Part shown: piece after piece, positions 3,616 through 44,520 of the stretch
Numbering within the stretch: the first letter of the stretch is position 1
How the letters are laid out: every line of letters starts with the position of its first letter
NCBI GenBank assembly: GCA_009692845.1
Contig: SHYK01000007.1
Location: 6,631 to 70,630 of the forward strand
DNA from: Chloroflexota bacterium
Lineage (GTDB): Bacteria > Chloroflexota > UBA6077 > SHYK01
DNA length: 64,000 bases
Direction: 5' to 3'
The notes under the pieces: model-generated
What the model was told of the DNA's origin: nothing
What the model saw: only the letters and a program-made list of their open reading frames with translations
Database searches by the model: none
Position numbers and translations under genes: made by a program

Positions 3616-5967
3616 CTACGCGGCGACCAACACCTTTGCGGTGCTCTCCACCGCTGGCTCAAGGGCCAGCTTCAGGACCTCGGCCACGTCCCCCACCAGG
3701 TGGATCTGCAGCTCGTCGCGCACCTGGCTGGGCACGTCATCGAGATCGGGTTCATTGCGACGGGGCAGGATGACTTCTTTGAGGCCGGCCCGATGGGCGG
3801 CCAGCAGCTTCTGCTTGACTCCCCCTATCGGGAGCACTTTGCCCTGCAAGGTCACCTCGCCGGTCATCCCAACCTGGCTGCGCACCGGCCGCCCGGTGAG
3901 CAAGCTCGCGAGCGCGGTGGTCATGGTGATCCCAGCCGAGGGGCCATCCTTGGGCACCGCGCCCGCCGGAACGTGGACGTGGAAGCGCTTCCCGGTGAAT
4001 GCCGACGGATCGATGCCGAGGGCCACCGCATGCGAGCGCACATAGGAGAGTGCGATCTGAACCGACTCGGCCATCACGTCGCCCAGCTGACCGGTCACGG
4101 TCAGTCCGGCTTCGCCGTCCATGACCGTCGCCTCGATGAAGAGCACATCGCCGCCCGCGCCGGTGACGGCCAGCCCGGTTGCCACTCCCGGGGTCTCGGT
4201 TCGCTCGGCCACTTCCGGCTCGAAGCGAGGCCGCCCGAGATGCGCCCGAAGATCGGCCTTATCGATCACCACCGGAGCCGGCAGCTCACCGGCGTCGATC
4301 TTGGCCGCTACCTTGCGGAGCAGCTTGCCAATCTGGCGCTCCAGATTACGCACGCCGGCCTCTCGGGTATGACCTTCGATCACGGTCAGCATCGCGTCAT
4401 CCGTGATGGAGACTTCTTCGGCGTCCAGCCCATTGCGCTCGAGCTGGCGGCGGACCAGATGGTCGCGAGCGATAGCCAGCTTCTCCTGGACAGTGTAGCC
4501 ATCGAGCTGAACGATCTCCATGCGGTCCAGCAAGGGACCGGGAATCGTGTCGACCACGTTGGTGGTGGGAATGAACAGCACGTCCGACAAATCCAGATCG
4601 ACTTCCAGGTAATGGTCCCGGAACGTGTGGTTCTGGGCCGGGTCGAGCACCTCCAGCAGCGCGGAAGACGGGTCCCCCCGCCAGTCGCTGCCGACTTTGT
4701 CGATCTCGTCCAGCATGATCACCGGGTTCATCGTGCCGGCTTCCTTCAATGCGCGGGCGATACGGCCAGGAATCGCACCGACGTAGGTGCGCCGGTGGCC
4801 TCGGATTTCCGCCTCATCATGGATACCCCCGAGGGACACCCGGGTGAACTTTCTGCCCAGCGCTCGGGCGACCGATTCACCAAGCGACGTCTTGCCGACG
4901 CCCGGAGGGCCCACCAGCGTGATGATGGCGCCTGAACCACGGCCCTCAACCGGCTGGAGCTTTCGGTTTTCCCGACGTTTCTTCACGGCCAGGAATTCAA
5001 TGATTCGGTCCTTCACGTCGGCTAGGCCGGTGTGGTCCGCATCCAGGATGCGGCGCGCTTCGGCGATGTCGAAGTTGTCGTCGGAACGTTTCCCCCAGGG
5101 CAGCTCGAGCATCCAGTCCAAGTAATTGCGGATCCATCCGTACTCAGGGTTCTGCTCGCTGGTTCGTTCCAAGCGATCCAGCTCGCGCTCGACCTCCTTG
5201 CGGACGTTCTCGGGGAAAGGCGTGTCGGCGATCTTCTGGCGGTACTCCGAGCCGGTTTCGCCGTCGTGGTCGCCCAGCTCCTTCTTGATCGCCGCCATCT
5301 GCTCGCGCAGGTAGTATTCGCGCTGGCGCTTCTCGAGGCCCTCGTTCACTTCACTGCGGATCTTCTCTTTGAGCGAAGCACCGGCCAGGCGGTCCCGGCT
5401 CCAGGCGATCAGCTTCTCGAGTCGTGCCATGACATCGCGCTCTTCGAGGATTTCCACCTGTTGCTGAACGCTCAGGTCGGGCGAATAGCCGGACAGGTCG
5501 GCCAGCTCACCGGGATGCTCGACTCCCCGCAACATTCGAGCGATGTGGCGGGAACCACGCAGATCGAGGAGATTTTCCAGGATGGCACGATACTCGTTGC
5601 CCAGCGCCTTTACCTTACCCGGGAGCTCAGCAAGCTCCGGGTCGGGGGCCGGCTCGACGGTGATCCAGAGTGCACCGGTTCGCTCGACGGCGGCCCCATT
5701 CAAAATACCCCGATAGAGGCCGTGGATCGCGCTCGCTTCCCGTCCGTCCGGCAAGCGGCCAGTCTCTTCGATACTTGCAATGGTCCCGATCTTGGCATAG
5801 CGGCCATCGATCCGAGGAACCAGAAGGACCATGCCGCTGCTCTGACGAGAAGCGTTGATGGCCGCACGCGCAGCGTCCGACTCGAGAGCCACCGGCACGG
5901 CCATGTGGGGCAAAATCACCCGGTCGTCCAGGGCAAGTAATGGAAGCAGTACTTCTTTTTCCGACAT
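3616..5967 (-). CDS. lon: ATP-dependent Lon protease (LonA type)
   Basis: 783 aa with an N-terminal LON domain, Walker [10 protein letters not shown], and the protease serine motif [11 protein letters not shown]. ggagga lies upstream of the ATG. Confidence 0.95.
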   Translation of the reverse strand: MSEKEVLLPLLALDDRVILPHMAVPVALESDAARAAINASRQSSGMVLLVPRIDGRYAKIGTIASIEETGRLPDGREASAIHGLYRGILNGAAVERTGALWITVEPAPDPELAELPGKVKALGNEYRAILENLLDLRGSRHIARMLRGVEHPGELADLSGYSPDLSVQQQVEILEERDVMARLEKLIAWSRDRLAGASLKEKIRSEVNEGLEKRQREYYLREQMAAIKKELGDHDGETGSEYRQKIADTPFPENVRKEVERELDRLERTSEQNPEYGWIRNYLDWMLELPWGKRSDDNFDIAEARRILDADHTGLADVKDRIIEFLAVKKRRENRKLQPVEGRGSGAIITLVGPPGVGKTSLGESVARALGRKFTRVSLGGIHDEAEIRGHRRTYVGAIPGRIARALKEAGTMNPVIMLDEIDKVGSDWRGDPSSALLEVLDPAQNHTFRDHYLEVDLDLSDVLFIPTTNVVDTIPGPLLDRMEIVQLDGYTVQEKLAIARDHLVRRQLERNGLDAEEVSITDDAMLTVIEGHTREAGVRNLERQIGKLLRKVAAKIDAGELPAPVVIDKADLRAHLGRPRFEPEVAERTETPGVATGLAVTGAGGDVLFIEATVMDGEAGLTVTGQLGDVMAESVQIALSYVRSHAVALGIDPSAFTGKRFHVHVPAGAVPKDGPSAGITMTTALASLLTGRPVRSQVGMTGEVTLQGKVLPIGGVKQKLLAAHRAGLKEVILPRRNEPDLDDVPSQVRDELQIHLVGDVAEVLKLALEPAVESTAKVLVAA

Positions 5968-9940: not shown

Positions 9941-10161
9941 CTGAAGTTAATGCGAAGCGGCTCCGATTGTCGAAGAATTCACTCGCTTCCCAGTTATAAG
10001 CGGCCTTTCTGTGACATTCGAGCGCATTGACGCGCGGCCGCTGCATGCTACTGTACGCTAACGCTCGCTGGTGCGCATTGCACCCCCCCCCAGGACGTTC
10101 CTATACTCGAAATAGGCGACATCCAGCGCCGGCAGCGCTGCGGACCGGCAATGGAGGATTT

Positions 10162-12642
10162 GTGACGGAAGAAAACCCAGGAACGACGAGAAGGCGGACG
10201 AAGAGCTCGCCACCCAAGCCACTAACGGTGACGGTCGAGCTCCCTGCCATTGCTCTGACGGATTCAGTCGTGCTGCCCCAGATGATCGTTCCCCTCCACC
10301 TCGATGCCTGGGCCCAGGTCCAGGCCGTCGAAATGGCCCTACTTGGGGACAAACGGATTTTTGTGGCGCCCCGAAGCGGCGAAGGTGAAGATGCGGAAAC
10401 GATCGGTCGGATAGGCGTCATTGCCACGGTCGAGGAGTCTCGCCCGTCTCGACGCGGCGGCCAGCGGGTGGTCGTTCGCGGCCTGAAGCGCGCTCGGCTC
10501 GACTCCGTGGCGCAAACGGAGCCGTATCTACGGATAAGCTGCCTACCCCAGCCCGATCCTGAAGTCGTTGCTCCAGAGGCTGCCGAACTCATGAACGAGC
10601 TCCTCGCGGTCACCGAGAACATCGTCGAGCTCAATCCAGACGTCCCATCTCAGGAGATCCTGCGCTACGTGCGGGGAATCAAAGAGCCGGGCTTGCTGGC
10701 CGACCATACCGCTTATTCTCCGGAGTGCTCCTTTGAAGAGCGGGTGAAGATTCTTGACACAATCGACCCGGTCGAGCGGCTTCGGATCGCCTTCGAGATT
10801 AGCCGTCGACATCTCCACGTGCAGCAGCTGCGGAGCAAGATTCGCGAGGACGTGAAGTCCGCCGTCGATAAGGCCCAGCGCGAGTTCGTGCTGCGCGAGC
10901 AGCTCCGGGCGATCCAGCGCGAGCTGGGCGAAGGCGAAGGCGAAGCGGCCATCGTGGATGAGCTCCGGGAGAAGATCCGGGCGGCCGGAATGCCCCCTGA
11001 ACCCGAGGAGAAGGCGCTCCGCGAGCTCGCCCGGCTCAACATCATCGGGATGCACTCGGCCGAGCAAGGAGTGATTCGCACCTACCTCGAATTGCTGACC
11101 GAGCTGCCCTGGTCAGTCAGTTCCGAGGATCACGAAGATATCAGCGAGGCTGCCCGCATCCTGGACGAAGACCACTACGGCCTAGAGAAGGTCAAGGAGC
11201 GCATCCTTGAATACATCGCTGTCCGCACGCTGGCCGGAACGAAGATGCGGAGTCCGATTCTTTGTTTCGTTGGACCTCCGGGGGTCGGCAAGACCTCGCT
11301 TGGCCGCTCCATCGCCCGAGCGCTCGGGCGCAACTTCTGGCGAACCAGCCTGGGCGGGGTGCGCGACGAGGCGGAGATTCGCGGGCATCGGCGCACCTAC
11401 GTGGGCGCGCTCCCCGGCCGCATCGTGCAGGGGATCCGCAACGCCAAGAGCAACAATCCGGTCTTCATGCTCGATGAGATCGACAAAGTCGGAAACGATT
11501 TTCGGGGAGATCCATCCTCGGCTCTCCTGGAAGTGCTCGATCCCGAGCAGAACTTCGCCTTCAGCGACCATTACCTAGAGGTCCCCTTCGATCTCTCCAA
11601 GGTCATTTTTATTCTGACCGCGAACATGCTGGACACGATTCCACCGGCCCTGCGCGACCGTATGGAGGTAATCAGCCTGCCCGGCTATACCGAGGACGAG
11701 AAGGTCAAAATCGCCGAGCAGTTCCTGGTTCCCAAGCAGCGCGAGGCGCACGGCTTGAGGCCTGAGCAGGCCACCGTACCGGAGCCGACGCTACGGAAGA
11801 TGATCGGCGGGTACACCCGGGAGGCCGGGGTCCGGAACCTGGAGCGGGAGATCGCCAACCTCTGTCGGAAGATCGCTCGCCGCGTCGTGGCCAAAGAAGT
11901 GGAGACGGTCACCATCCAGCCGGCCGACCTGGCCGAGCAGCTCGGGCCCGAAAAGTACACCTTCAACCTGGCCGAAGAGGTGGACGAGATCGGTACGGCG
12001 ACCGGGGTTGCCTGGACCGAGACTGGCGGCGAGCTTCTCTCCATTGAGGTCAGCATCATGGAGGGGAAGGGCGAGCCCATGCTGACCGGGCATCTCGGCA
12101 AAGTCATGCAGGAGTCAGCCCGGGCCGCGCTCACCTACGCCCGTTCCCACGCGCATCAACTTGGGGTCGACCCAGCGTTCTTTGACACTCACTCGATCCA
12201 CGTCCACGTGCCCGCTGGAGCCGTCCCTAAGGACGGTCCTTCGGCCGGAATCGCCCTCACGACCGCTTTAATTTCCGCTCTCAGCGGCCGACCGGTGCGG
12301 AAGGACGTCGCCATGACCGGCGAGGTCACCTTGCGGGGACGAGTTCTCCCCATCGGCGGCCTGAAAGAGAAGATGCTGGCCGCCCATCGCGCGGGAATCA
12401 AGACCTTCATTCTCCCCAAGCGGAATGCCAAAGACCTGATCGACATCCCGGCGAAGGTCCGCGAGATGGAGATCATCGAAGTCGAGCACGTTGATGAGGT
12501 GCTCGCCCACGCATTGCTGGCCGCGGCGCCCGCCGAGGCGCCATCGGTCAACGGGCATGTCGATGCAAAGAAGGTGGAGCCGCCCAAGCCGATCCTACGC
12601 TCCCGGAAAGGTAGCGTGGCCGCCCAGCCTCTCGCTTCTTAG
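10162..12642 (+). CDS. lon: ATP-dependent Lon protease, second paralogue
   Basis: [20 protein letters not shown] and an N-terminal LON domain are present. I preferred the GTG at 10162 because ggagga lies 5 nt upstream; the ORF maximum starts at 10027. Confidence 0.9.
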
Positions 12643-18642: not shown

Positions 18643-19605
18643 TCAGGCCAGCTCCGCCAGGAGCGAGCGCCAGGCCTCGCTTTCCGTTTCCGGGGCCACC
18701 AGCGCGGCGGCTCGCTGCCCATAGGCCCTCAGGCTCTCGTAGAAGCCTGGATCGCTCTCCGCGCATCCTAAGAGCTCGGCTAGGGCCCTCGTGTCCCCCA
18801 CCGGGAAGTAACCCGGGTAATCATCGCCGAGAGTTCCGATTAGGCCACTGATCCGTGACGCCACCACGGGTGTTGGCGACGTGAGTGCCTCGCCCAGCAC
18901 ATTCGAGCTGCCTTCCATGATGGAAGTAATCGCAACCAGATGGCTGCTCGCGAGCAGCCCGCGAGCTCGCCAGTGGGGCAGGGCGCCCGTCCAGCGATAC
19001 CGCGGGTTTTGCGCCGCCTCTTCGCGGGCCGCGGCTCCCAGGTCCGGGCTCAGGGCCGCCCCAACCTGGACCACCCTGATCAAGGACGAGCTGGCCAGGA
19101 GGCGAGCCGCGGCCGCCGTGCGGAGAGGGTCTTTCTCCGGTCGCAGGTGGCCGATCACCGCCACCCGGAAGTAGGTGGTGGGGCGCTTCGCCTGGCCGCG
19201 AAACGGGGGACAGGACTGGTAGATCACCCGCGCTTTGCTCTGGAGCGACCCGGGTAGCTCAGCGAGTCCCATTCGCTGCAGCACCACCAGCCGAGTGGCC
19301 AGATCCAGAGAGCGCTGGGCCTCCGCATCGATCCTGATGTCGTGGTAGAGGTCGGTACCAGTGAGCACCAGCACCAAAGGCTTGTTCGGGTGGCGCTCGA
19401 CGAACTCTCGGATGGAAGGCGCGCTGCGTCGGGCGTGCAGGCCAATCAGGACGTCACAGGGACCGCTGGTATAGGAAAGTTCGACGTCGACGCGGTGTCC
19501 AAGCTGGCGCAGGATACGTCCGTAGCGCATGGCGGTCATCACATTTCCTGAGCGGACCTGGGGAACAGACGGGGTGACGACGCGGATGTGGAGCCGGCTA
19601 TCCAT
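18643..19605 (-). CDS. senB: SenB-like glycosyltransferase (putative selenosugar synthase; TIGR04348-type as I recall it)
   Basis: MDSRLHIRVVTPSVPQVRSGNVMTAMRYGRILRQLGHRV...VIGHLRPEKDP...SIMEGSSNVLGEAL. The ATG at 19605-19603 lies 2 nt after the stop of the EgtB-like gene. The locus context includes selD and egtD. Confidence 0.65.
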   Translation of the reverse strand: MDSRLHIRVVTPSVPQVRSGNVMTAMRYGRILRQLGHRVDVELSYTSGPCDVLIGLHARRSAPSIREFVERHPNKPLVLVLTGTDLYHDIRIDAEAQRSLDLATRLVVLQRMGLAELPGSLQSKARVIYQSCPPFRGQAKRPTTYFRVAVIGHLRPEKDPLRTAAAARLLASSSLIRVVQVGAALSPDLGAAAREEAAQNPRYRWTGALPHWRARGLLASSHLVAITSIMEGSSNVLGEALTSPTPVVASRISGLIGTLGDDYPGYFPVGDTRALAELLGCAESDPGFYESLRAYGQRAAALVAPETESEAWRSLLAELA

Positions 19606-20932
19606 CGAGTGCGCAGGTGCGGAATCCGGCCCATACGTCCCGCCGGTCGGGCGGGTAGAAGTTCCGATAAGCACTCCGGATGAGCCTGGATCGGGTGGCC
19701 CAACATCCCCCCCGAAGCACTTTGTGGCCGAAAAACCAGGGCTCCGAATATTCCTTATAAGGTCCTGGAGCAAAACCCGGGAAGGGACCAAAATCGGTAG
19801 CCGTCCACTCCCAGACGTTACCGATCATTTGCCGGCACCCAAAGGCGCTGTCCCCGGCCGGAAGGGCGGACACCGGAAGGGTCCCCATCACCGCCCAGTC
19901 GAGGTTGGCCCGGTCGGGCGTCGGCGCCTCATCGCCCCAAGGGTAAACCCGCTTAGAGCCAGCATCCCCGCCGGGAGTCCCAGTCGCGGCAAGCTCCCAC
20001 TCCACTTCGGTGGGCAGGCGACGCCCGGCCCACCGGCAAAAGGCGTCGGCTTCGTACCAGTTGACGTGAAGGACCGGCAGGGCCGCTTCCAGCGAGACCC
20101 AGTGGTCGAAGTTTCTGCGTAACCATTCGCCATTCGGACCTTGCTGCCAGTAGACAGGGTGCTCGGCGCCCACGCTGTTGCGCCACCACCATCCCTCGGC
20201 CGTCCAGAGATCTCTCCGCCCGTAGCCCCCGTCCTCGACAAAATTCAGATACTCGCGGTTGCTCACGGCGGTCCGGGCGAGGGCGAAAGGCTTCACTTCG
20301 ACGGGGTGCGCCCACTGCTCGTTGTCGAAAACGAACGGTTCGGTGGGCCGGCTGCCAAGGTACAACGTCGCCCCCGGAACGTGCGCATCCCCGAGCGCCG
20401 GGCTCAGCTCTTCGATCCTGTGGCCAGGCAGCGCGGCTTCCCGGCCTGGGAAGCGCGGCGCTGGATAGCCCAGGGTTTGGCGGGTGTACGTGAAAGCCTC
20501 GTCGTGCATTCCCTCATGGAGAAGCGCGAGCTCCATGAAGTACGGGCCGCGGTAGCCATCCCGATCACGCGGCTCCTCGAGCTCGTGCTCGCGCTCGCAG
20601 ATCGTGTCCAGCACCCGCTGCATGTACCCGAGCGTGCTATCCCGGTCCAACAGAGGAAGCGCCCAGCGCGGATCGTGCGGAACCGTGGCGGAGTTGTAGA
20701 GTGCATCCCCATCGCTCAGAATGGGCTCCGCCCCCAGGAAATACCGCAGCACAAAATACTCGTAGAACCAGGCCACGTGTCCGATCTCCCAGCGGAGCGG
20801 ATTCACGAGGGGTAGGCTTAGCCCCATCAGCTGCTGCTCGTCGAGGTCAGCCACTAGAGCGAGGGTCCGCTCGCGAGCCTCCCGCAACGCGGGAATGAGC
20901 TCAGCCGCGGAACGGGAGCTTCTCAAAGTCAT
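19598..20932 (-). CDS. senA: EgtB-family DinB_2 + FGE-sulfatase-domain enzyme; SenA-like (putative selenoneine synthase) by adjacency to senB
   Basis: NPLRWEIGHVAWFYEYF is DinB-like. HVNWYEADAFCRWAGRRLPTEVEWE...GNVWEWT...RGGCWAT is the FGE-sulfatase part. The start is ambiguous: ATG 20932 or TTG 20971. Confidence 0.7.
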   Translation of the reverse strand: MTLRSSRSAAELIPALREARERTLALVADLDEQQLMGLSLPLVNPLRWEIGHVAWFYEYFVLRYFLGAEPILSDGDALYNSATVPHDPRWALPLLDRDSTLGYMQRVLDTICEREHELEEPRDRDGYRGPYFMELALLHEGMHDEAFTYTRQTLGYPAPRFPGREAALPGHRIEELSPALGDAHVPGATLYLGSRPTEPFVFDNEQWAHPVEVKPFALARTAVSNREYLNFVEDGGYGRRDLWTAEGWWWRNSVGAEHPVYWQQGPNGEWLRRNFDHWVSLEAALPVLHVNWYEADAFCRWAGRRLPTEVEWELAATGTPGGDAGSKRVYPWGDEAPTPDRANLDWAVMGTLPVSALPAGDSAFGCRQMIGNVWEWTATDFGPFPGFAPGPYKEYSEPWFFGHKVLRGGCWATRSRLIRSAYRNFYPPDRRDVWAGFRTCALDG

Positions 20933-21073
20933 GGAGCCGCAGTTTGGCAGAAACCATGGGCCGGTTTCCAACTGGTGTGCTCGACCCGCTAACCCAACCG
21001 TGTCCAGGTGACACCTGGAGAAAAGGCGGACATGGTGTGCAAGCGAATTTTGGAGTTTACTGCCCGCTGGGGC

Positions 21074-21973
21074 CTAGGCTCCGTTCTTGGCCTGACGCAG
21101 CACGAAGTCAACGAATCGCCGAGCGACGGGTGGCAACAGACGGCGCTCTTCCCGTACGAGGTAAAGAGTGCGACGGATGGGAACGCCCGCAATACGCACC
21201 GCGACAACCTCATTCTTCTGGGCAGGGTCGATCGCCATGGATGAGACGAAGCCGACCCCGTACCCGGCCCGAACTGCCGACACTATGGCCTGGGTGGTGC
21301 TCAGAGTCATCGCTACTCGGTAAGGAGGCAGGGCGAGACCTCTTTGCCAAAGCGCCCATTTCACATTGAGAATGGTGCCTGAACCGTCCTCCCGTTCCAC
21401 AAACCGCTGAGTGGCGAGCGCAGCAAGTGGAACCTCCGGACCACGAGCGAACGGGTGGCTTCCGGCCACCGCCAGGACGACCTCGTCCTCTCCGACCGGG
21501 TAGAGGTGGAGCCCAGGGCGCTGCATGGGAGCGCCCACGAAGCCCATATGCCAACGGCCCTCCAGAAGCTCCTCAACGACCCGGCTTGACGCGGTCGTGA
21601 ATACGACCGGTCTCACCTCCGGGTAGGCTTCAGTGAACTCGGCCACCAGGCGAGGCACCAGGAATTCGCCGGGAGTGGTGCTCGCAATGATTCGGAGCTC
21701 GCCGCCGAGACTGGCTTCGGCTCCCAGAAGCTCATCGAGCATCTGGTGATGGCGCGCGATGACGTCGCTGGCGAAGGCACGATAGCGCTCGCCGGCTGGG
21801 GTGCAACTCACCCCTTCCCGGGCGCGCGCGAGCAGCGCGACGCCGAGGGAGCGTTCAAGCTTTTGAATCTGGCGGGTGAGGCCCGGCTGGCTGATTCCGA
21901 GCTCTCGAGCGGCCGCTGTAAAACTGCCGCGCTCTGCGACCAACAAGAAATTTTCGAGAGTGCTTACATCCAC
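21074..21973 (-). CDS. LysR family transcriptional regulator
   Basis: LENFLLVAERGSFTAAARELGISQPGLTRQIQKLERSLGVALL is an HTH followed by a LysR substrate-binding domain. It uses a GTG start, is divergent from the permease, and is co-directional with senAB. Confidence 0.9.
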   Translation of the reverse strand: MDVSTLENFLLVAERGSFTAAARELGISQPGLTRQIQKLERSLGVALLARAREGVSCTPAGERYRAFASDVIARHHQMLDELLGAEASLGGELRIIASTTPGEFLVPRLVAEFTEAYPEVRPVVFTTASSRVVEELLEGRWHMGFVGAPMQRPGLHLYPVGEDEVVLAVAGSHPFARGPEVPLAALATQRFVEREDGSGTILNVKWALWQRGLALPPYRVAMTLSTTQAIVSAVRAGYGVGFVSSMAIDPAQKNEVVAVRIAGVPIRRTLYLVREERRLLPPVARRFVDFVLRQAKNGA

Positions 21974-22082
21974 GAAGTAGCTCCAGCGCCAAGCACATAA
22001 AAGCGAACCAACGGGCAGAGACTATTGAGGGGATTTCTATGCGAATTTAGCATGCACTTCGCCTTCTCCGCATCGGTTCTTT

Positions 22083-23210
22083 ATGCTGCGTCTCAATTCA
22101 TCCGGTCATCCGGGCGAGTCTATGGGGGCGAATTTGGACCAGACGACCCAAGTTACCGCAATCGCCCTGAACCGCCGAAACGAATATCTGCGCGGCTTCG
22201 GCTTGCTATTGGTGATCGCGGTTGCCGGGCTCGCTTATGTGAAGTGGGAGCCGTACTGGGCCCGTAGCTTTGTCGTGGCGGTCAGCCACAATCTCGGCGC
22301 TTCAATCGTCTCCGGTCAGGGGGCGGTTGCCCCTGAACCATCGCTGGCCGCCGCGTGGGACTATGCTCGGGTCTATTTCGATCGCATCTGGATGGCAATG
22401 GTACTGGGGCTATTGCTGGCCGCCACGGTGGATGCGCTAGTGCCCCACGATTGGTTGGCCCGAGTGCTTGGCAGTACTCGGCTACGAAGCACAGGTTTGG
22501 GCGCGCTGTTAGCGTTGCCCGGCATGATGTGAAGCTGCTGTGCAGCGCCGGTGGCGCTGTCGCTCCGCAGAGGCGGCGCATCCCTCGGAGCCGCGGTGGC
22601 TTTCGCAGTTGGAAATCCAACCCTCAATATCGCCGTGCTGGTCTGGCTGGTGTTTGCCTTAGGTTGGCAATGGGCAGCTCTCCGACTGGTCTTCGGGATC
22701 GCCCTGGTTTTGGGGGCCGCCGCTCTCGCGACTCGACTTCAGGGTCCGACGTCGGTCCTACCGGATCTGGTAGAGCCGGCCGTCGTTTCATCGCCGGACC
22801 AAACCGGCTGGGCCATGCGATGGGTGCGGTCGCTGCTCCGCTTCACGGTTCAGCTTGTTCCGCTCATGATTGTGCTCGTCTTGTTGATGGGCGGGGCGCG
22901 GGCTTGGCTGTTTCCGGCGATCGGCGCAGACTGGGGTAACAGCTGGATTGCCGTGCTCGGCTTCGCCGTCGCCGGTATGCTGTTCCCGATCCCGACCGGC
23001 GCCGAGATCCCGATTATTCAATCGATGATGGGGTTCGGACTCGGTCCGGCCCCAGCTGCGGCATTGCTGCTCACCCTCGCCCCGACCAACCTCGCATCTC
23101 TGGCCATGATGACTCATGCTTTTTCGTGGCGGGTGGTGGCAGCGATCGCGGGGGTCACGGTAGTTGTAGGCATCGGGGCCGCGATCGTCGCGGGAGCCCT
23201 AGGGCTCTAG
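22083..23210 (+). CDS. UPF0718/ArsP-type (PF03773-like) permease with an in-frame TGA; candidate selenocysteine-containing transporter
   Basis: ORFs 22083..22532 and 22551..23210 are in the same frame. They are separated only by TGA 22530-22532 and six sense codons. The read-through gives ...LLALPGMM-U-SCCAAPVALSLRRGGASLGAAVAFAVGNPTLN. The U aligns with the first Cys of the family's P-x-C-S-C membrane motif. A hairpin follows 10 nt after the TGA. Confidence 0.6.
22543..22559 (+). promoter_or_regulatory. SECIS-like hairpin downstream of the permease TGA
   Basis: CAGCGC(C)-GGU-(G)GCGCUG: a 6-7 bp GC stem whose apical loop contains GGU. The stem starts 10 nt after the UGA, and the loop lies about 20 nt from the U of the UGA. 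Confidence 0.5.
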
Positions 23211-23236
23211 ATACTCGCTGCGCACGGCGGGACATT

Positions 23237-24523
23237 TTATCCGTCGCTAGCGAGCCGAATCCCGGTGAATTGCCAGCGGGCATCGGGCGGGAAGAAGTTC
23301 CGATAGCTCGCCCGAATGTGCGACCGGGGGGTCACGCAGGACCCACCCCGTAACACCATCTGATTCACCACGAATTTCCCGTTGTATTCGCCCAGGTTGC
23401 CGTCAAGCGGGCGGAAGCCCGGGTAGGGCAGGTAAGCGCTCCCGGTCCATTCCCAGACGTCGCCGTAGAGCTGACTGAGGTGAATCGCCGCGCCATTCGT
23501 GGATCGAGCTACCCCGGGATGGAATGCCCCCGATTCGAGGAAGTTGCCCTCGATCGGCTGAGCACTGGCAGCGTGCTCCCATTCCTGCTCGGTGGGCAGG
23601 CGCTCTCCCGCCCAGCGGGCGAAGGCGTCCGCTTCGTAGTAGCTGACGTGGCAGACCGGCGCCGCGAGGTCGACGGGCTGCATGCCCCCGAGGGTAAAGT
23701 TCTGCCATCCGTCGTCGCTCCGTTCCCAGTACCGGGGCGCCTCCCCGCCCTGGGTTTGGGCGCTGGCCCGGCCAGCCGAGAGCCATAGCTCAGGCCGCTC
23801 GTAACCGCCGTCCGCGATGAACTCGAGAAACTCGGCATTCGTGACCAGCCGCGACGCCATCTGGAAAGGCGCCAAGAGGACCTCATGGCGGGGGCCCTCG
23901 TTATCGAAACTGAACCCGTTCCCATCATGCCCAATGGATTGAATTCCGCCCGAAAACCGAACCCACTGGGGAGGCAAGGGGGTGGAGTGACTGGATGGAT
24001 TCGCCTGGAAAACGGGCCGCAGCGGATTTACCGAGAGGTTGAACTTGATATCGGTCAGGAGCAATTCCTGGTGCTGCTGTTCATGGTTAAGCCCTAATTC
24101 CACCCGATCCGCGAATTCTGGCCCGTTCGCCAACTCGAACAGGGCCGCCATCCCATCATCGACGTGGGCCCGATAGGCGAAGACCTCAGCCACCGTGGGT
24201 CGGGAGAGATGACCGCGATTGGGTCGCGAAAACTGAGGACCCACGGTGTTGTAGTAGGAGTTGAAGAGGTACTCGTAGCGGGGATCGATCGGCCGGTAGC
24301 TGGGCAGAAAAGGTTTGAGCAGGAATGTCTCAAAGAACCAGGAGACGTGGGCGAGATGCCACTTGGTGGGGCTGACGTCCGGCATGGCCTGGATGACGAA
24401 GTCTTCGGGAACGAGAGTCGCACAGAGCGCTTCGGTGAGCGAGCGCACTTCCCGGTAGCGGCTGGCCAGGGATCGCCCCTCACCAGTGGGCGCACCTGCC
24501 CCGGGCATCGCAGTTAGGTGCAT
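23237..24523 (-). CDS. egtB: EgtB (hercynine oxygenase / sulfoxide synthase family)
   Basis: PDVSPTKWHLAHVSWFFETF is the DinB_2 part. HVSYYEADAFARWAGERLPTEQEWE...GDVWEWTGSAY...RGGSCVT is the FGE-sulfatase part. gggagg lies 5 nt upstream of the ATG. Confidence 0.8.
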   Translation of the reverse strand: MHLTAMPGAGAPTGEGRSLASRYREVRSLTEALCATLVPEDFVIQAMPDVSPTKWHLAHVSWFFETFLLKPFLPSYRPIDPRYEYLFNSYYNTVGPQFSRPNRGHLSRPTVAEVFAYRAHVDDGMAALFELANGPEFADRVELGLNHEQQHQELLLTDIKFNLSVNPLRPVFQANPSSHSTPLPPQWVRFSGGIQSIGHDGNGFSFDNEGPRHEVLLAPFQMASRLVTNAEFLEFIADGGYERPELWLSAGRASAQTQGGEAPRYWERSDDGWQNFTLGGMQPVDLAAPVCHVSYYEADAFARWAGERLPTEQEWEHAASAQPIEGNFLESGAFHPGVARSTNGAAIHLSQLYGDVWEWTGSAYLPYPGFRPLDGNLGEYNGKFVVNQMVLRGGSCVTPRSHIRASYRNFFPPDARWQFTGIRLASDG

Positions 24524-24701
24524 TTCGCCTCCCGAAAGACGTAGGCCAGCCCATGATGGGGCATCTAAGCGACTAGCTTCGTCCCTGAGGATGCCGAATT
24601 CGCATCATGCTGGCTACAGTAATGCCAAATAGTCATGCAAGAGGCGGTCTCTGAACTGGCTTCGGCAGTGCGAAGCTATAGCGAGCGAGGGGCGCGATGA
24701 G

Positions 24702-25751
24702 CTAGGGCTGAACCAGAATACGGCCGGCTTGGCCTTCGATGAGCTTGCCCACTTGCGCGGCCGCCAGAGTGCCGGCCTCCTTGAGGCGGGCCACTAGCTC
24801 CTCCGCTCGGTCCTCGCTGACCGCGATCAGCAATCCGCCCGAGGTCTGGGCATCGGCGAGAACCGTGCGGGTGGTCGTGTCAACCTCCGCCCAATCGACA
24901 AATGGCTCCAGGAACCCCTCGTTGGCCCGCGTGCCACCTGGGACCACGCCCTCTTCGATGAGCTCTCGCACCCGAGGCAACACCGGCATCGCGCTCGACT
25001 GCAGGACGGCTGCCACGCCGCTCGCTACCGCCATCGTATGAAGATGACCCAGCAGCCCAAACCCGGTCACGTCCGTGCACGCGTGTGGCCCCACCGCCAG
25101 CATCACGTCCCCGGCGGCGCGGTTGAGCTCAGCCATCACTCGAGTCACCTCGGCGATCTCCGACTCAGCCAGCTTCCCAGCTTTGATAGCCGTCGTGAGC
25201 ACGCCGGAGCCGAGGGGCTTGGTGAGGACCAACACATCCCCTGGGCGCCCGCCCGCGTTGCTGATAATCCGATCCGGGTGGATCGTTCCAACTACCGCAT
25301 AACCGCACTTTGGCTCGGGATCGTCAACGGTGTGGCCACCCACCACTTCGACGCCCGCCTCGCGGGCCTTCTCGGCCCCGCCGAGCAGGATTTGCTCGAG
25401 ATCGGACCAGGGCAGCGTTCCCCGCGGGAAGCCGACAAAACTCAGCATTGCGGTCGGCTTGGCGCCCATCGCGTAGACATCCGAGAGCGAGTTCGCCGCC
25501 GCTATCGCGCCAAACTGGTACGGGTCATCCACGACCGGCGTGAAGATATCGATCGTCAACGCGAGCGCTAGCTCGTCATTCAAGCGATAGATAGCGGCGT
25601 CATCGCCGGTGCCGAAACCTACCAGGACATTCGGATCGATGCTAACTGGGAGCGCGCCCAACACGCGGGCGAGATCGGCGGCGCCGATCTTGCCTGCTCA
25701 ACCAGCGCAGTGGGACAGGCTAGTTAGCCGAATGATGTCTTCACGAGTCAC
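24702..25751 (-). CDS. selD: Selenide, water dikinase (selenophosphate synthetase) with selenocysteine at the catalytic position; SenC equivalent
   Basis: The track ORF (24702..25664) lacks the N-terminus. Extending in frame gives GTG(25751) TREDIIRLTSLSHCAG-TGA(25700-25698)-AGKIGAADLARVLGALP. This aligns with E. coli ...LTQYSHGAGCGCKI, with the TGA on Cys17. The SD gggggtga lies upstream, and an in-frame stop lies just 5' of the GTG. Confidence 0.9.
25672..25690 (-). promoter_or_regulatory. SECIS-like hairpin downstream of the selD TGA
   Basis: On the coding strand, AGAUCGG-CGCCG-CCGAUCU (7-8 bp stem) starts 7 nt after the UGA. Confidence 0.45.
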
Positions 25752-25907
25752 GAAAGCTCACCCCCTTCTTCATGGCCTCGAAGTCTGAACGAGTCATGCG
25801 GAGTAGGATACGCAATTCCACCCGCCGGTAGGGTCAGGGCTCGTGCTGATCGCGGTATAACAGCGCGCACCCAGAGTCCCGCACCCAGAGTCCATGAGAG
25901 GCCATTG

Positions 25908-26897
25908 ATGCAAGTCGCGAGCGAAGACCGTCTAAAGATCGAAGTATGCTTCGACCCGGCTGACCAAGCCGGGACCATGGCGGATGAGGTGCGGCGGGGC
26001 CTCACCGCAACCCAAAAGTGGCTTCCCTGCAAGTATTTTTACGACGAGACGGGCTCAGCTCTTTTCGAGCAGATTACCGAGCTACCGGAGTACTACCTCA
26101 CCCGGACCGAGCTCGCGATCTTGCAAAACATCGCCACCCCCCTCGCCCTGGCCCATCCGTTCGAGGAAGTCGTCGAAATCGGGGCCGGCTCGGCCAAGAA
26201 GACGACGACGTTGCTCGACGCGCTCGCGGCGGCCGGCTCCCTCCGCCGCTACCTCCCGATCGACGTGGATGGGACGATGGTGCTCAGCTGCGGGCAGGCG
26301 ATGCTGGCGCGATACCCGCAACTGGAGGTGAGCGGCCTGGTGGCCGACTTCCAGAAACACCTGAGTCGAGTAGCCCCGGCCCGCGGGCGTCGCCTGGTCA
26401 TCTTCCTCGGCAGTACCTTCGGAAACCTGAATGAGGAAGAACGGCAGCGGTTTTTGGCCGAGGTCCGGCCGCTGCTGGGGCCGACCGACCGCTTCCTGAT
26501 GGGCATCGACCTCGTAAAGGACGTCGCCACCCTCGAGGCGGCCTATGACGACGCCGCCGGAGTGACCGCCGCGTTCAATCGCAACATCCTGACCGTCTTA
26601 AATTCCGCATTGAAAGCCGACTTCGACCCGGCTGCCTATCGACACCGGGCGTTCTTTAACCGAGCGCTGGATCGCATCGAGATGCACCTGGCCCCCGCGA
26701 CAGCCCAGCACGTCGTGCTGCAGGCGCTGGACCTCGCTATCACGGTGCAGGCCAACGAAACGATCTTCACCGAAATCTCCTGCAAGTACACTCGAGCAAC
26801 GCTGGAGCACCTCCTGGCTGAAACGGATTTCAGCCTCACCGAATGGCACACCGACCCTGAGGGGAAGTTCGCCGTATTGCTCGCCGGACCGAGATAG
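25908..26897 (+). CDS. egtD: L-histidine N-alpha-methyltransferase (hercynine synthase)
   Basis: LPCKYFYDETGSALFEQITELPEYYLTRTELAIL...EIGAGSAKKT...FLGSTFGN is the EgtD signature. The gene is divergent from selD. Confidence 0.9.
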   Translation: MQVASEDRLKIEVCFDPADQAGTMADEVRRGLTATQKWLPCKYFYDETGSALFEQITELPEYYLTRTELAILQNIATPLALAHPFEEVVEIGAGSAKKTTTLLDALAAAGSLRRYLPIDVDGTMVLSCGQAMLARYPQLEVSGLVADFQKHLSRVAPARGRRLVIFLGSTFGNLNEEERQRFLAEVRPLLGPTDRFLMGIDLVKDVATLEAAYDDAAGVTAAFNRNILTVLNSALKADFDPAAYRHRAFFNRALDRIEMHLAPATAQHVVLQALDLAITVQANETIFTEISCKYTRATLEHLLAETDFSLTEWHTDPEGKFAVLLAGPR

Positions 26898-42969: not shown

Positions 42970-44520
42970 CTAATGTCGATAGTGGCGTTGGTGGGTAAAG
43001 ATCATCGCCATGTGCGCATGGTTGGCCACTTCGATTACGTGCTCGTCCCGACTCGATCCACCCGGCTGGATAATCGCCGTCACCCCCGCCTCGGCAGCCC
43101 GCTCGACCGCATCCGGGAACAGTAGAAAGGCGTCCGACGCGAGGACTGATCCGACTGCCCGCTCTCCGGCTTTGTGACAGGCAAGCTCCACACTATCCGC
43201 CCGGCTCATCTGGCCCGCGCCAACCCCGACCAGGGCGAGCTTCTTAGCCAGGACAGTTGCATGCGAGCGAACGTGCTTTACCGCCCGCCAAGCGAACAGC
43301 AAGCTCGTCACCTCTTCCAAGGTCGGGTGTCGAGTCGTCACCACGACCCGGGCCAGTGCGCCCTCCGGAACCGTGTCGCGGGTTTCGACCAGGAAGCCCC
43401 CCGAAACCCGCTGATAGTCGAGATCCAGAAATTGACCCGAGCTGGATTTGCCGTTGCCGCTGACTGGAGCCTTCAGCACCCGCAGATCGGCTTTTTGGCG
43501 AAGCAGATCGAGAGCCTCGGGAGCATAGTCCGGGGCAATGATGTCCTCAAAAAACACGGGCGCAATCTCTTCAGCAGCTGCCCTATCCACCATACGATTG
43601 AACGCGACGGCCCCACCAAGTGCGGCCTGCGGATCGCAATCCAGCGCCCTCCGGAAAGCTTCGGCCAGATTCGAGTCGCAGGCCAGGCCGCATGGATTGC
43701 CGTGGTTCACCACCGCCACCGTCGGCGCGTTGAAGTCGCGGACCGCTGTCCAGGCGACGTCCAGATCGAAAGTGTTGTTGTAGGCGGGGGCCATTCCGTG
43801 CAGCTGCTCCGCTTCAGCGATTCCCTCGGCGAGCTGGCGGGCCGAGAGATCTCGATAGAAGGCAGCCAATTGATGTGGGTTTTCTCCATATCGGAAGCTC
43901 GTGATTTTTTCCAAGGCCACAGTCATCGTTTTCGGAAACAGCTCATCGGATGCTCCCAAGTAGCTCGCGATGCAGCTGTCGTACACCGCGCAATGCTGGA
44001 AAGCCTTGGCGGCGAGCCGTTGGCGAGTGTCTTCGCGGACGCCGCCTGGTCTGCGGAGCCCGTCCATGACTTCCGGATAATCGGCCGGATCGCAGACCGC
44101 CAGCACGTGCTGGAAGTTTTTGGCGGCAGCCCGTAGTAGCGTGACGCCGCCAATATCGATGAGCTCGACCGCCTGCTCCATTGTCGCCGACGGATCCCGC
44201 ACGCCTTCGACGAACGGATAAAGATTGCACACAACCAGGTCGATCGGCGTGAATCCGTGCTGATCGAGCTCGCTGATGTCTTTAAGATCGCCTCTTCGGG
44301 CGAGAATGCCGGCGTGGATGGCGGGATGCAGCGTCTTGACCCGTCCGCCGAGCATTTCAGGGAAGCCCGTCACATCCTGGACCGGGCGCACGGCGAGGCC
44401 GGCACTTCGCAGAAATTCTTCCGTCCCGCCGGTGGATATGAGCTCCACGCCCATCTCCAGCAAATAACGGGCCAGCTCTTCCAATCCAGTCTTATCGTAG
44501 ACGCTCATAAGAGCGCGCAT
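42970..44520 (-). CDS. purH: Bifunctional AICAR transformylase / IMP cyclohydrolase
   Basis: MRALMSVYDKTGLEELARYL...ELISTGGT is the MGS-like IMPCH domain. RYGENPHQ and the AICARFT domain are also present. Confidence 0.95.
   Translation of the reverse strand: MRALMSVYDKTGLEELARYLLEMGVELISTGGTEEFLRSAGLAVRPVQDVTGFPEMLGGRVKTLHPAIHAGILARRGDLKDISELDQHGFTPIDLVVCNLYPFVEGVRDPSATMEQAVELIDIGGVTLLRAAAKNFQHVLAVCDPADYPEVMDGLRRPGGVREDTRQRLAAKAFQHCAVYDSCIASYLGASDELFPKTMTVALEKITSFRYGENPHQLAAFYRDLSARQLAEGIAEAEQLHGMAPAYNNTFDLDVAWTAVRDFNAPTVAVVNHGNPCGLACDSNLAEAFRRALDCDPQAALGGAVAFNRMVDRAAAEEIAPVFFEDIIAPDYAPEALDLLRQKADLRVLKAPVSGNGKSSSGQFLDLDYQRVSGGFLVETRDTVPEGALARVVVTTRHPTLEEVTSLLFAWRAVKHVRSHATVLAKKLALVGVGAGQMSRADSVELACHKAGERAVGSVLASDAFLLFPDAVERAAEAGVTAIIQPGGSSRDEHVIEVANHAHMAMIFTHQRHYRH

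What the first reader, a model, noticed from the sequence alone, without database searches (positions are those of the whole stretch)
22083..23210. Permease in the selenium locus appears to be a selenoprotein: TGA replaces the first Cys of the C-S-C membrane motif
Seen in sequence: the two track ORFs (22083-22532 and 22551-23210) share one frame. Only TGA 22530-22532 interrupts them. Read-through gives PGMM-[TGA]-SCCAAPVALSL...GNPTLN. A GC hairpin, CAGCGC(C)GGU(G)GCGCUG, starts 10 nt after the TGA and places a GGU-containing loop about 20 nt from the codon. Established knowledge: UPF0718/ArsP (PF03773) permeases carry a conserved P-x-C-S-C-(S/G) motif in a transmembrane helix, with the Cys pair functionally important in ArsP as I recall. 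Bacterial SECIS elements are hairpins immediately 3' of UGA with a G/U-containing apical loop. Sec almost always substitutes for a catalytic or ligand Cys. The neighbouring selD also uses TGA-Sec, so the decoding machinery should exist. Inference: this is a single protein of about 375 aa with a U-S-C-C site. It would be a candidate selenium (selenide, selenite or selenoneine) transporter with a Sec ligand. It is divergently paired with the LysR gene that sits upstream of senAB. I do not recall this family among described bacterial selenoproteins.
Basis: partly seen in the sequence, partly recalled or inferred. Interest (0 to 1): 0.9.

Follow-up and report, generated by a model that had tools for sequence, protein, structure and literature searches.

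The report
Selenocysteine-containing YraQ-type permease in selenoneine locus
The two short "permease" reading frames are one membrane transporter whose in-frame TGA almost certainly encodes selenocysteine, and the transporter's relatives sit beside selenium-handling genes in several bacterial phyla, which makes it a testable candidate for a dedicated bacterial selenium transporter.

Summary
Positions 22083-23210 form one frame, broken only by TGA at 22530-22532.

- **One protein.** Joined, the two halves match Pfam PF03773 as a single domain.
- **Cys column.** The TGA falls on an invariant Cys (119/119 homologues) in the motif PGMM-C-[ST]-C-C-A-A-P.
- **Recurrence.** The same TGA occurs in 35 other sequences from Chloroflexota and Bacillota, including the isolate Ammoniphilus resinae. 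All but one frameshifted copy keep open frames on both sides. dN/dS downstream of the TGA is 0.10-0.33.
- **Hairpin.** Sec forms carry a stem-loop 12-30 nt after UGA that is longer than synonymous recoding predicts. Twelve Cys forms do not.
- **Decoding.** The adjacent selD also carries TGA at its known Sec site, and TGA ends 6 of 18 other genes.

A pseudogene, a sequencing error and a split gene are effectively excluded.

The novelty claim needs correcting. USC-for-CSC selenoproteins are already described in the related SO_0444 Cu/Zn efflux family of the same Pfam family. This gene belongs to a different clade, that of E. coli YraQ, and databases annotate it as fragments.

The clade sits inside sen operons or beside selD, selU, selA-selB or LysR in four phyla. 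I infer that it transports selenium, probably inward to feed SelD. Direction and substrate are unproven.

The parts
22083..23210 (+). One gene for a ~375-aa YraQ/UPF0718 (PF03773) permease, read through TGA as Sec150. An alternative start at ATG 22122 is possible.
   Evidence: With U replaced by C the protein hits PF03773 as one domain (profile 16-291 of 294, 77.1 bits). The halves score 24.4 and 51.5 bits. Full-length homologues are 340-370 aa.
22530..22532 (+). In-frame TGA, read as the selenocysteine codon (Sec150).
   Evidence: The column is Cys in 119/119 homologues. The same TGA occurs in 35 other sequences. TGA is an ordinary stop in 6 of 18 annotated genes of the window.
22518..22550 (+). 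Coding sequence of the signature motif P-G-M-M-U-S-C-C-A-A-P.
   Evidence: P146, M148, M149, C150, C152, C153 and P156 are invariant in 55 aligned sequences. In the AF2 model of the Cys form P0001 the triad sits at a helix break.
22540..22563 (+). SECIS-like stem-loop. Core 8 bp at 22542-22549 / 22553-22560, with apical loop GGU at 22550-22552.
   Evidence: Fold energy is -16 kcal/mol. p = 0.002 against synonymous recodings. Equivalent hairpins occur in all 27 unique TGA forms but are not enriched in 12 Cys forms.
21974..22082 (.). Intergenic region of 109 bp shared by the divergent lysR and permease genes. Presumed regulatory region; not analysed.
   Evidence: Gene coordinates. The same divergent LysR-permease pairing is seen in L001, L012, L016, L019 and L020.
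21074..21973 (-). LysR-type regulator, closest to the selenium-metabolism-associated LysR family.
   Evidence: NF040786 scores 213.7 bits, which is below its 250-bit cut-off; it is the best hit. Pfam HTH_1 and LysR_substrate both match.
19598..20971 (-). senA, selenoneine synthase.
   Evidence: NF041186 scores 485 bits against a cut-off of 420.
18643..19791 (-). senB, selenosugar synthase. The true start is probably near 19587.
   Evidence: TIGR04348 scores 371 bits against a cut-off of 300. The match starts at residue 69 of the ORF.
23237..24523 (-). egtB, ergothioneine sulfoxide synthase paralogue.
   Evidence: TIGR03440 scores 581 bits against a cut-off of 360.
24702..25751 (-). selD/senC, selenophosphate synthetase. 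It is itself a selenoprotein, with TGA at 25698-25700 and a hairpin 11 nt downstream.
   Evidence: TIGR00476 scores 345.9 bits. The sequence reads SHCAG-[TGA]-AGKIG. An 8-bp hairpin follows.
25905..26897 (+). egtD, histidine N-alpha-methyltransferase (hercynine supply).
   Evidence: TIGR03438 scores 349 bits against a cut-off of 290.9.

Best explanation
Positions 22083-23210 encode one polytopic permease of the YraQ/UPF0718 clade of PF03773. UGA-150 is decoded as selenocysteine by SelB and tRNA-Sec. A coding-region stem-loop 12-30 nt downstream directs this decoding. The active-site motif therefore reads P-G-M-M-U-S-C-C. Shown: the gene is intact, under selection and recoded at a Cys column. 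Inferred: the U/C-x-C-C triad lies at a helix break in the membrane core and binds the substrate through Se-Se or S-Se bonds, as the conserved Cys residues do in the sulfur transporter YeeE/YedE (my recollection of that structure, not checked here). Inferred: the substrate is a selenium species, because the clade is embedded in sen operons or lies next to selD, selU or selA-selB. Inferred, with about 0.5 probability: transport is inward and feeds selenide or selenite-derived Se to SelD/SenC, which supplies selenophosphate to SenB and SenA. Sec in place of Cys would give a more nucleophilic ligand that exchanges faster. Expression is probably controlled by the divergent LysR. My confidence that this is a genuine selenoprotein permease is about 0.85-0.9.
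For: - The merged protein forms one PF03773 domain.
- The TGA column is Cys in 119/119 homologues, inside the invariant motif PGMMC[ST]CC.
- A DNA pattern scan found 11 genomes and 24 metagenome contigs with TGA at that column. My own estimate of the chance expectation is far below one hit per scan. Open frames lie on both sides in all but one frameshifted copy, L022.
- A 79%-identical protein, P0043, found by protein search, shows the same split layout.
- dN/dS downstream of the TGA is 0.10-0.33, the same as upstream, at dS 0.6-2.2.
- Sec forms are interspersed with Cys forms in a neighbour-joining tree, implying several Cys/Sec switches.
- Hairpins in Sec forms exceed synonymous recodings (window p = 0.002; Fisher 1.8e-12 over 27 related sequences in about 10 hairpin classes). 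Twelve Cys forms do not (Fisher 0.61). Stem score Sec against Cys gives Mann-Whitney p = 0.0018.
- Compensatory third-codon-position changes occur: GCCAGU..ACUGGC, CCCAGU..ACUGGG and UCCGGU..ACCGGG.
- selD carries TGA here and in four other loci with Sec permeases. The one Cys-form locus whose selD I read (Paenibacillus agricola) has Cys-SelD.
- Context: 21 of 36 Sec forms adjoin senA, senB, selD, egtD or LysR.
- Cys forms adjoin selenium genes in seven cases:
  - selU in Burkholderia and Caballeronia;
  - selD-selU in two Paenibacillus species;
  - selA-selB-selD in Luteibacter and Nitrospirillum;
  - LysR in a metagenome contig.
Against: - No selA, selB or tRNA-Sec lies in the window, and the rest of the genome was not available.
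- The fold is not significant against dinucleotide shuffles or in a whole-region MFE test.
- No Rfam family matches.
- My DNA pattern required the codons after the TGA, so their conservation is partly by construction.
- The characterised relatives ArsP and SO_0444 are exporters, which argues against import.
- About half of the Cys-form neighbourhoods sampled have no selenium genes. These include enterobacterial yraQ.
- There is no experimental evidence of Sec insertion or of any transport.
Confidence: 0.85

Rival explanations
1. The same selenoprotein permease works as an exporter. It would export either selenoneine or selenosugar made by SenA and SenB, or excess reactive selenium. The need for Sec during translation would then act as a built-in gate, so that the pump is made only when selenium is plentiful.
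For: The relatives with an assigned function are efflux proteins. ArsP is placed by TCDB in the organo-arsenical exporter family, SO_0444 is named a Cu/Zn efflux transporter, and SaoE is a predicted efflux protein. That ArsP efflux was shown experimentally (Chen et al. 2015) is my recollection; the paper was not held. In many loci the gene is the last or first gene of the senA-senB operon, as product exporters often are.
Against: Cys forms lie next to selD-selU and selA-selB-selD in organisms where no sen genes were found near the permease. No selenoneine is expected to be exported there, which points to a substrate upstream of SelD. A detoxification pump that cannot be made without Sec machinery would be unusual; Haft et al. 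make this argument for SaoE.
Confidence: 0.3
2. The UGA is a true stop. The locus would then make two polypeptides, a 149-aa N-terminal half and a C-terminal half restarted at GTG 22551, that assemble into a split permease.
For: Gene callers and GenBank annotate it this way. Split membrane transporters exist; archaeal YedE is one example (PMC5322559).
Against: A restart at GTG 22551 would delete the S-C-C-A-A-P part of the most conserved motif of the family. No Shine-Dalgarno-like sequence precedes that GTG (my direct reading). The residues at the degenerate pattern positions after the TGA match those of the Cys forms: only S/T at +1, A/T/S at +4 and A/S at +5. The hairpin signal is specific to the TGA forms.
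Confidence: 0.04
3. The gene is a pseudogene or carries a nonsense mutation, or the TGA is a sequencing error for TGC or TGT.
For: A single-base change from TGC or TGT gives TGA.
Against: The sequence is identical in two independent run assemblies. The same TGA occurs in 35 other sequences across two phyla, with dS up to saturation and dN/dS of 0.1-0.3 on both sides.
Confidence: 0.01
4. The UGA is read through without Sec, by a near-cognate tRNA inserting Trp, Cys or Arg, or under an altered genetic code.
For: Low-level UGA read-through occurs in bacteria generally (general knowledge, not tested here).
Against: TGA terminates 6 of 18 well-supported genes in the window, so the code is standard. 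The codon sits on an invariant Cys, is followed by a selected hairpin and co-occurs with Sec-SelD. This is the signature of SelB-dependent recoding.
Confidence: 0.04

Closest known systems
SO_0444 family Cu/Zn efflux transporter selenoproteins (NCBIfam NF033936; e.g. WP_014809615.1 of Desulfomonile tiedjei)
   Same: They belong to the same Pfam family, PF03773 (ArsP superfamily). Sec replaces the first Cys of the conserved C-S-C motif, giving U-S-C. They are already used by NCBI's PGAP as a known selenoprotein family.
   Different: The window protein scores 63 bits against a cut-off of 300 for NF033936 and matches over only 108 residues. Its motif is PGMM-U-[ST]-C-C, with a third Cys. Its neighbours are selenium-utilisation genes, not metal-resistance genes. 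PGAP does not recognise it: the Ammoniphilus resinae copy is a 134-aa 'hypothetical protein'.
E. coli / Klebsiella YraQ (UPF0718), an orphan permease
   Same: It belongs to the same clade. Identity is about 45% over residues 54-316. The Klebsiella protein (WP_002918216.1, 'permease') has the same PGMMCTCC motif; I did not read the E. coli sequences.
   Different: It has Cys, not Sec. It lies in the dolP-yraQ neighbourhood without selenium genes. No function is published, and no paper links it to selenium.
YedE/FdhT (YeeE/YedE family, PF04143), the predicted selenium transporter
   Same: It is a polytopic membrane protein linked to selD by genomic context, it has a functionally important conserved Cys, and some members are selenoproteins with the motif GUxSG. 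This is the closest analogue in function.
   Different: It is not homologous; the window protein has no PF04143 hit. The fold and the motif differ.
ArsP methylarsenite efflux permease (TC 2.A.119)
   Same: It belongs to the same Pfam family. As I recall from Chen et al. 2015, a membrane-embedded Cys pair is needed for binding trivalent organoarsenicals. The paper was not held, so this is unverified.
   Different: No ars genes lie nearby. The motif and subfamily differ. ArsP is an exporter of arsenicals.
sen (selenoneine) biosynthetic gene cluster senA-senB-senC (Kayrouz et al. 2022)
   Same: The window holds senA, senB and selD/senC above the curated thresholds, plus egtD. The authors note an unnamed 'putative selenate transporter' near many sen clusters.
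   Different: The text I could read does not say which family that transporter belongs to, and it says nothing about Sec in it.

Membership tests
PF03773 (ArsP_1 / UPF0718 predicted permease) | Whole-protein HMM score above the Pfam gathering threshold (32.3 bits) as one domain | tested here: met
   77.1 bits over profile positions 16-291 of 294 for the joined protein.
Bacterial selenoprotein (SelB-dependent UGA recoding) | In-frame UGA aligned to Cys in homologues | tested here: met
   Cys in 119/119 homologues.
Bacterial selenoprotein (SelB-dependent UGA recoding) | Coding conservation continues downstream of the UGA, and the UGA recurs in orthologues | tested here: met
   35 further TGA forms, open on both sides except the frameshifted L022. 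dN/dS of 0.10-0.33 downstream.
Bacterial selenoprotein (SelB-dependent UGA recoding) | Stem-loop shortly 3' of the UGA with a G/U-containing apical loop (bacterial SECIS) | tested here: met
   8-bp stem with GGU loop 20 nt from the UGA. It exceeds synonymous recodings, and the enrichment is specific to TGA forms. No dedicated SECIS predictor was available, and Rfam has no match.
Bacterial selenoprotein (SelB-dependent UGA recoding) | selA, selB and tRNA-Sec present in the genome | not testable with these tools
   None lies in the 64-kb window, and the genome was not available. Indirect support: the adjacent selD carries TGA at its known Sec site.
Bacterial selenoprotein (SelB-dependent UGA recoding) | Selenium shown in the protein by 75Se labelling or mass spectrometry | not testable with these tools
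   This needs an experiment.
SO_0444 family Cu/Zn efflux transporter (NF033936) | Score at or above the curated equivalog cut-off (300 bits), full length | tested here: not met
   63.4 bits; residues 106-213 match profile positions 12-119 of 351.
SO_0444 family Cu/Zn efflux transporter (NF033936) | U-S-C in place of the conserved C-S-C motif | tested here: inconclusive
   The window has U-S-C(-C), and the motif region lies inside the matched stretch. I did not align it residue by residue with a SO_0444 sequence.
SaoE efflux transporter (NF040736) | Score at or above the cut-off (325 bits), plus a SAO locus context | tested here: not met
   49.6 bits. None of the neighbouring genes I scanned matched a sao family; they are sen, egt, selD and lysR.
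YedE/FdhT (PF04143) | Pfam PF04143 match | tested here: not met
   PF03773 is the only Pfam hit.
ArsP organoarsenical exporter | ars operon context or arsenical substrate | tested here: not met
   The neighbours are sen, egt, selD and lysR genes. The substrate cannot be tested here.
sen selenoneine gene cluster | senA, senB and selD co-localised, each above its curated threshold | tested here: met
   SenA 485 bits against 420, SenB 371 against 300, SelD 346 against 125.

The most novel reading that the evidence does not exclude
The YraQ/UPF0718 clade defined by PGMM-[C/U]-[ST]-C-C is a dedicated selenium transporter of prokaryotes, which two reviews say has not yet been identified. It would feed SelD for selenocysteine, selenouridine and selenoneine synthesis. 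Its substrate site would be a thiol/selenol triad that carries selenium as a covalent S-Se or Se-Se adduct. The orphan E. coli protein YraQ would then be the enterobacterial member.
Probability: 0.4. Interest if true: 0.85.

Novelty: new variant of a known kind. Interest (0 to 1): 0.68.

Why it matters
- **Annotation.** The gene is split or truncated in public records, for example in Ammoniphilus resinae. The rule 'TGA at the first Cys of PGMMC[ST]CC' would repair at least 36 sequences and add a membrane transporter to the bacterial selenoproteome.
- **Selenium transport.** Two reviews state that no dedicated high-affinity selenium transporter is known in prokaryotes (PMC9312934, PMC13188914). 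This clade is physically linked to selD, selU, selA-selB and the sen operon in Chloroflexota, Bacillota, Beta-, Gamma- and Alphaproteobacteria. In some lineages it uses Sec itself.
- **Testability.** E. coli and Klebsiella carry a member (yraQ), so the idea can be tested in standard strains.
- **Selenoneine production.** Heterologous selenoneine production may need this gene for selenium supply or for product export.

Tried and rejected
- **Whole-region MFE against synonymous recoding (+9..+54).** It did not separate Sec from Cys forms, because GC-rich sequence folds anyway. I replaced it with a position-restricted perfect-stem statistic.
- **Dinucleotide-shuffle z-scores.** They are weak (-0.9 to -1.8), so I do not use them as support.
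- **Rfam, at gathering and permissive thresholds.** Only chance-level hits appeared.
- **Single consensus structure or covariance model for the hairpin.** I abandoned this because the stem sits in different registers in different lineages (loop start +17 to +29).
- **Structure.**
  - Neither the sequence search nor the fold search (best E = 0.15, TM 0.30) found a solved relative.
- **Look-ups that failed.**
  - The U-containing full-length protein was not accepted by the look-up tool.
  - The DNA for P0043 was not retrievable.
  - The ArsP paper PMC4681449 was not held.
- **Search for selA and selB.** None of the ten largest ORFs of the window that I scanned with NCBIfam matched selA or selB.
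- **Rejected explanations.** Pseudogene, sequencing error, split gene and altered genetic code are rejected for the reasons given under the rival explanations.
Full report
**1. The observation.**

Positions 22083-23210 translate as one 376-codon frame whose only internal stop is TGA at 22530-22532. ORF listing splits the region into 22083-22532 and 22551-23210.

Scanned separately, the halves hit Pfam PF03773 weakly. The N half scores 24.4 bits, below threshold and aligned to the wrong part of the profile. The C half scores 51.5 bits, starting at profile position 66.

Joined, with Cys standing in for the stop, they give one continuous PF03773 domain. It covers profile positions 16-291 of 294 at 77.1 bits. 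The stop therefore interrupts a single domain.

Its core is GCAGCGCC-GGU-GGCGCUGU at 22542-22560, and the loop lies 20 nt from the U of UGA.

**2. Is the TGA a real, selected feature?**

- **Cys column.** A protein search returned 278 relatives at E <= 1e-5, and the best 120 were listed. Of those 120, 119 span this column and have Cys there. It lies inside an invariant P-G-M-M-C-[ST]-C-C-A-A-P motif.
- **A second split copy.** The remaining hit, P0043, is 79% identical and is a 219-aa fragment. Its contig has the same layout as the window: an upstream ORF ending 18 nt, in frame, before its start.
- **Recurrence.** I scanned public DNA for CCN-GGN-ATG-ATG-TGA-WSN-TGY-TGY-NCN-GCN-CC.
  - The genome collection gave 11 hits. 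They are Bacillota and Chloroflexota/Thermomicrobiales MAGs, a Sporolactobacillaceae MAG and the isolate Ammoniphilus resinae DSM 24738.
  - A slightly looser pattern gave 24 metagenome contigs.
  - My own estimate of chance hits is far below one per scan.
  - In all 35, the frame is open on both sides of the TGA for the full length available. The exception is L022, which has a frameshift in a variable loop; its twin L029 is intact.
- **Selection.** Between pairs of TGA forms, dN/dS downstream of the TGA is 0.10-0.33. Upstream it is 0.12-0.27, with dS of 0.6-2.2. The codon has persisted through long divergence while the 3' half stayed under purifying selection.
- **Phylogeny.** In a neighbour-joining tree the TGA forms fall into several groups interleaved with Cys forms. 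The nearest relatives of the window, L003 and L032 are Cys forms. This is the usual pattern in families that switch between Cys and Sec.
- **Reproducibility.** The window's gene is identical, TGA included, in assemblies of two different sequencing runs.
- **Genetic code.** TGA ends 6 of 18 well-supported genes in the window, so the code is standard.

Together these results exclude a sequencing error, a pseudogene and a reassigned codon.

**3. The recoding signal.**

Energy tests against dinucleotide shuffles are weak in this 62.6% GC DNA. A whole-region test against synonymous recoding did not discriminate either.

A position-restricted test did. The statistic was the longest perfect stem whose loop lies +17 to +31 from the UGA, compared with 1000 recodings that keep the peptide and the gene's codon usage.

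| Set | n | Result |
|---|---|---|
| Window | 1 | 8-bp stem, p = 0.002 |
| Unique TGA forms | 27 | Fisher combined p = 1.8e-12 |
| Cys forms | 12 | Fisher combined p = 0.61, median p = 0.47 |
| Stem score, Sec against Cys | 27 against 12 | mean 6.1 against 4.5, Mann-Whitney p = 0.0018 |

The Fisher value for the TGA forms is inflated by relatedness. About ten distinct hairpin classes exist, and most are individually at p <= 0.05.

Apical loops are GGU, GGUC, GUG, CGUGA, UGGCA and similar.

Within one register there are compensatory changes at synonymous third positions. The Ala/Gly pair changes from G-C to C-G, and the Pro/Thr pair from A-U to G-C. The stems are GCCAGU..ACUGGC, CCCAGU..ACUGGG and UCCGGU..ACCGGG.

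This fits a bacterial SECIS, as I recall the bSECISearch criteria: a stem-loop whose G-containing apical loop lies 16-37 nt from the UGA. No dedicated predictor was available, and Rfam has nothing.

**4. Decoding capacity.**

The window has no tRNA-Sec. None of the ten large ORFs I scanned matched selA or selB. The rest of the genome was not available.

Indirect evidence is good. The adjacent selD/senC (24702-25751, minus strand) carries TGA at 25698-25700, in the SHxAG-[U/C]-xxK site, and an 8-bp hairpin follows 11 nt downstream. From memory, many bacterial SelD proteins have Sec at this position.

The selD genes next to TGA permeases in L009, L015, L031 and L034 also carry TGA there. The one Cys-form locus whose selD I read, Paenibacillus agricola (L040), has Cys.

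**5. What the protein is.**

It is a PF03773 permease of the clade that JGI names YraQ/UPF0718. Klebsiella YraQ has the identical PGMMCTCC motif, and E. coli records match at about 45% identity.

It is not a member of the curated SO_0444 family (63 bits against a cut-off of 300) or of SaoE (50 bits against 325).

An AlphaFold2 model of the 60%-identical Cys form P0001 is confident (pLDDT 87.6, pTM 0.88). It places the Cys triad at the break between helices 116-126 and 133-145. A second break lies at the invariant I-P-T-x-x-E-I-P motif. From this I infer a pair of broken helices that form a central site, but I could not inspect the coordinates.

No solved structure is related by sequence or by fold.

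**6. Context and likely function.**

The window's locus reads, in order:

- senB (minus strand)
- senA (minus strand)
- lysR (minus strand)
- the permease (plus strand)
- egtB (minus strand)
- selD with Sec (minus strand)
- egtD (plus strand)

.

Of the 36 TGA forms, 21 adjoin senA, senB, selD, egtD or the LysR. The usual layouts are senA-senB-(egtD)-permease or permease-senA-senB in one direction. The rest sit on short contigs or among unrelated genes.

The neighbourhoods of the Cys forms I sampled are these:

| Organism or source | Neighbourhood |
|---|---|
| Burkholderia | LysR-selU-permease, overlapping stop and start |
| Caballeronia | selU-permease |
| Paenibacillus agricola and P. xylaniclasticus | selU-selD divergent from the permease |
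| Luteibacter | selA-selB, then selD divergent from the permease |
| Nitrospirillum | selA-selB, selD divergent from the permease, then fdhE and formate dehydrogenase |
| Metagenome contig | A LysR 60% identical to the window's |
| Three other contigs, one Paenibacillus plasmid and the enterobacterial yraQ locus | No selenium genes |

The link extends to selenouridine and selenocysteine loci where no sen genes were found near the permease. The common denominator is therefore SelD's substrate, not selenoneine.

I infer a selenium transporter. Supply of selenium to SelD is most likely (about 0.5). Export of excess selenium or of selenoneine is the main alternative (about 0.3), and the known relatives are exporters.

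A covalent S-Se or Se-Se relay on the U/C-x-C-C triad is a mechanistic guess. It rests on analogy with YeeE/YedE and on selenotrisulfide chemistry, both from my own knowledge.

**7. Comparison with what is known.**

Haft et al. report that in the SO_0444 Cu/Zn efflux family CSC is 'occasionally replaced by' USC. They say this was one of only two transporter families then in PGAP's selenoprotein reference set (10.1101/2022.07.06.499078). A 2026 review lists it as 'UxC, GenBank annotated' (PMC13188914).

What I did not find described is the following:

- Sec in the YraQ clade. No curated model covers it, and RefSeq calls the A. resinae N-terminal half a 134-aa hypothetical protein.
- The clade's link to selenium genes. 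It is absent from Lin et al. 2015, Zhang et al. 2008 and the 2022 and 2026 reviews.
- Any paper that mentions both yraQ and selenium.

Kayrouz et al. mention an unnamed 'putative selenate transporter' near many sen clusters. It may or may not be this gene.

**8. Verdict.**

- The selenoprotein interpretation is supported, at about 0.85-0.9.
- It is a new variant of a known kind: a Sec-bearing ArsP-superfamily permease from a different clade, with a selenium-metabolism context.
- The functional idea, a dedicated selenium transporter that includes E. coli YraQ, is the interesting part. It is directly testable but rests on a modest, non-systematic sample of neighbourhoods.

Noticed in passing
window 24702-25751 (-), TGA at 25698-25700: selD/senC is itself a selenoprotein. 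An in-frame TGA sits at the Cys17/Sec column (SHCAG-U-AGKIG), with an 8-bp hairpin 11 nt downstream. ORF callers start the gene after the TGA, at 25664. The selD genes beside Sec permeases in L009, L015, L031 and L034 carry the same TGA.
   Followed up: yes
window 18643-26897: One locus combines selenoneine genes (senA, senB, selD) with a true egtB and with egtD. A single hercynine supply could therefore feed both ergothioneine and selenoneine synthesis.
   Followed up: partly
L048 5905-6945 (Klebsiella pneumoniae NZ_CP129771.1); E. coli hits H7, H8, H10: The enterobacterial orphan permease YraQ belongs to the same clade. Identity is about 45%, and the Klebsiella protein carries the identical PGMMCTCC motif. 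It lies in the dolP-yraQ locus without selenium genes. No paper links yraQ to selenium.
   Followed up: partly
L008 4377-5462 (Ammoniphilus resinae DSM 24738, NZ_JAGGKT010000006.1): A cultured isolate carries the TGA form. GenBank splits it into MBP1932383.1 (134 aa) and MBP1932384.1 (218 aa). RefSeq keeps only a 134-aa 'hypothetical protein', WP_342453816.1.
   Followed up: yes
L013/L014 6874-9059; L046; L040; L045; L043; L044: Cys-form homologues sit next to selU (Burkholderia, Caballeronia), selD-selU (two Paenibacillus species) and selA-selB-selD (Luteibacter; Nitrospirillum, there also with fdhE and formate dehydrogenase).
   Followed up: partly
L022 (metagenome contig Ga0187825_10001193): This TGA-form copy changes frame in the variable cytoplasmic loop about 95 codons after the Sec codon. 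L029 is the same sequence, intact. The cause is probably an assembly indel or a recent frameshift.
   Followed up: partly
window 18643-19791 and 19598-20971 (-): The listed senB ORF overlaps senA by about 190 nt. The SenB model match begins at ORF residue 69, so the real senB start is probably near 19587.
   Followed up: no
window 3616-5967 (-) and 10027-12642 (+); 42970-44520 (-) and 44599-45918 (-): The window holds two full-length Lon protease genes. It also holds a bifunctional purH next to a separate AICAR formyltransferase-type gene (PRK07106), within a purF-purL purine cluster.
   Followed up: no
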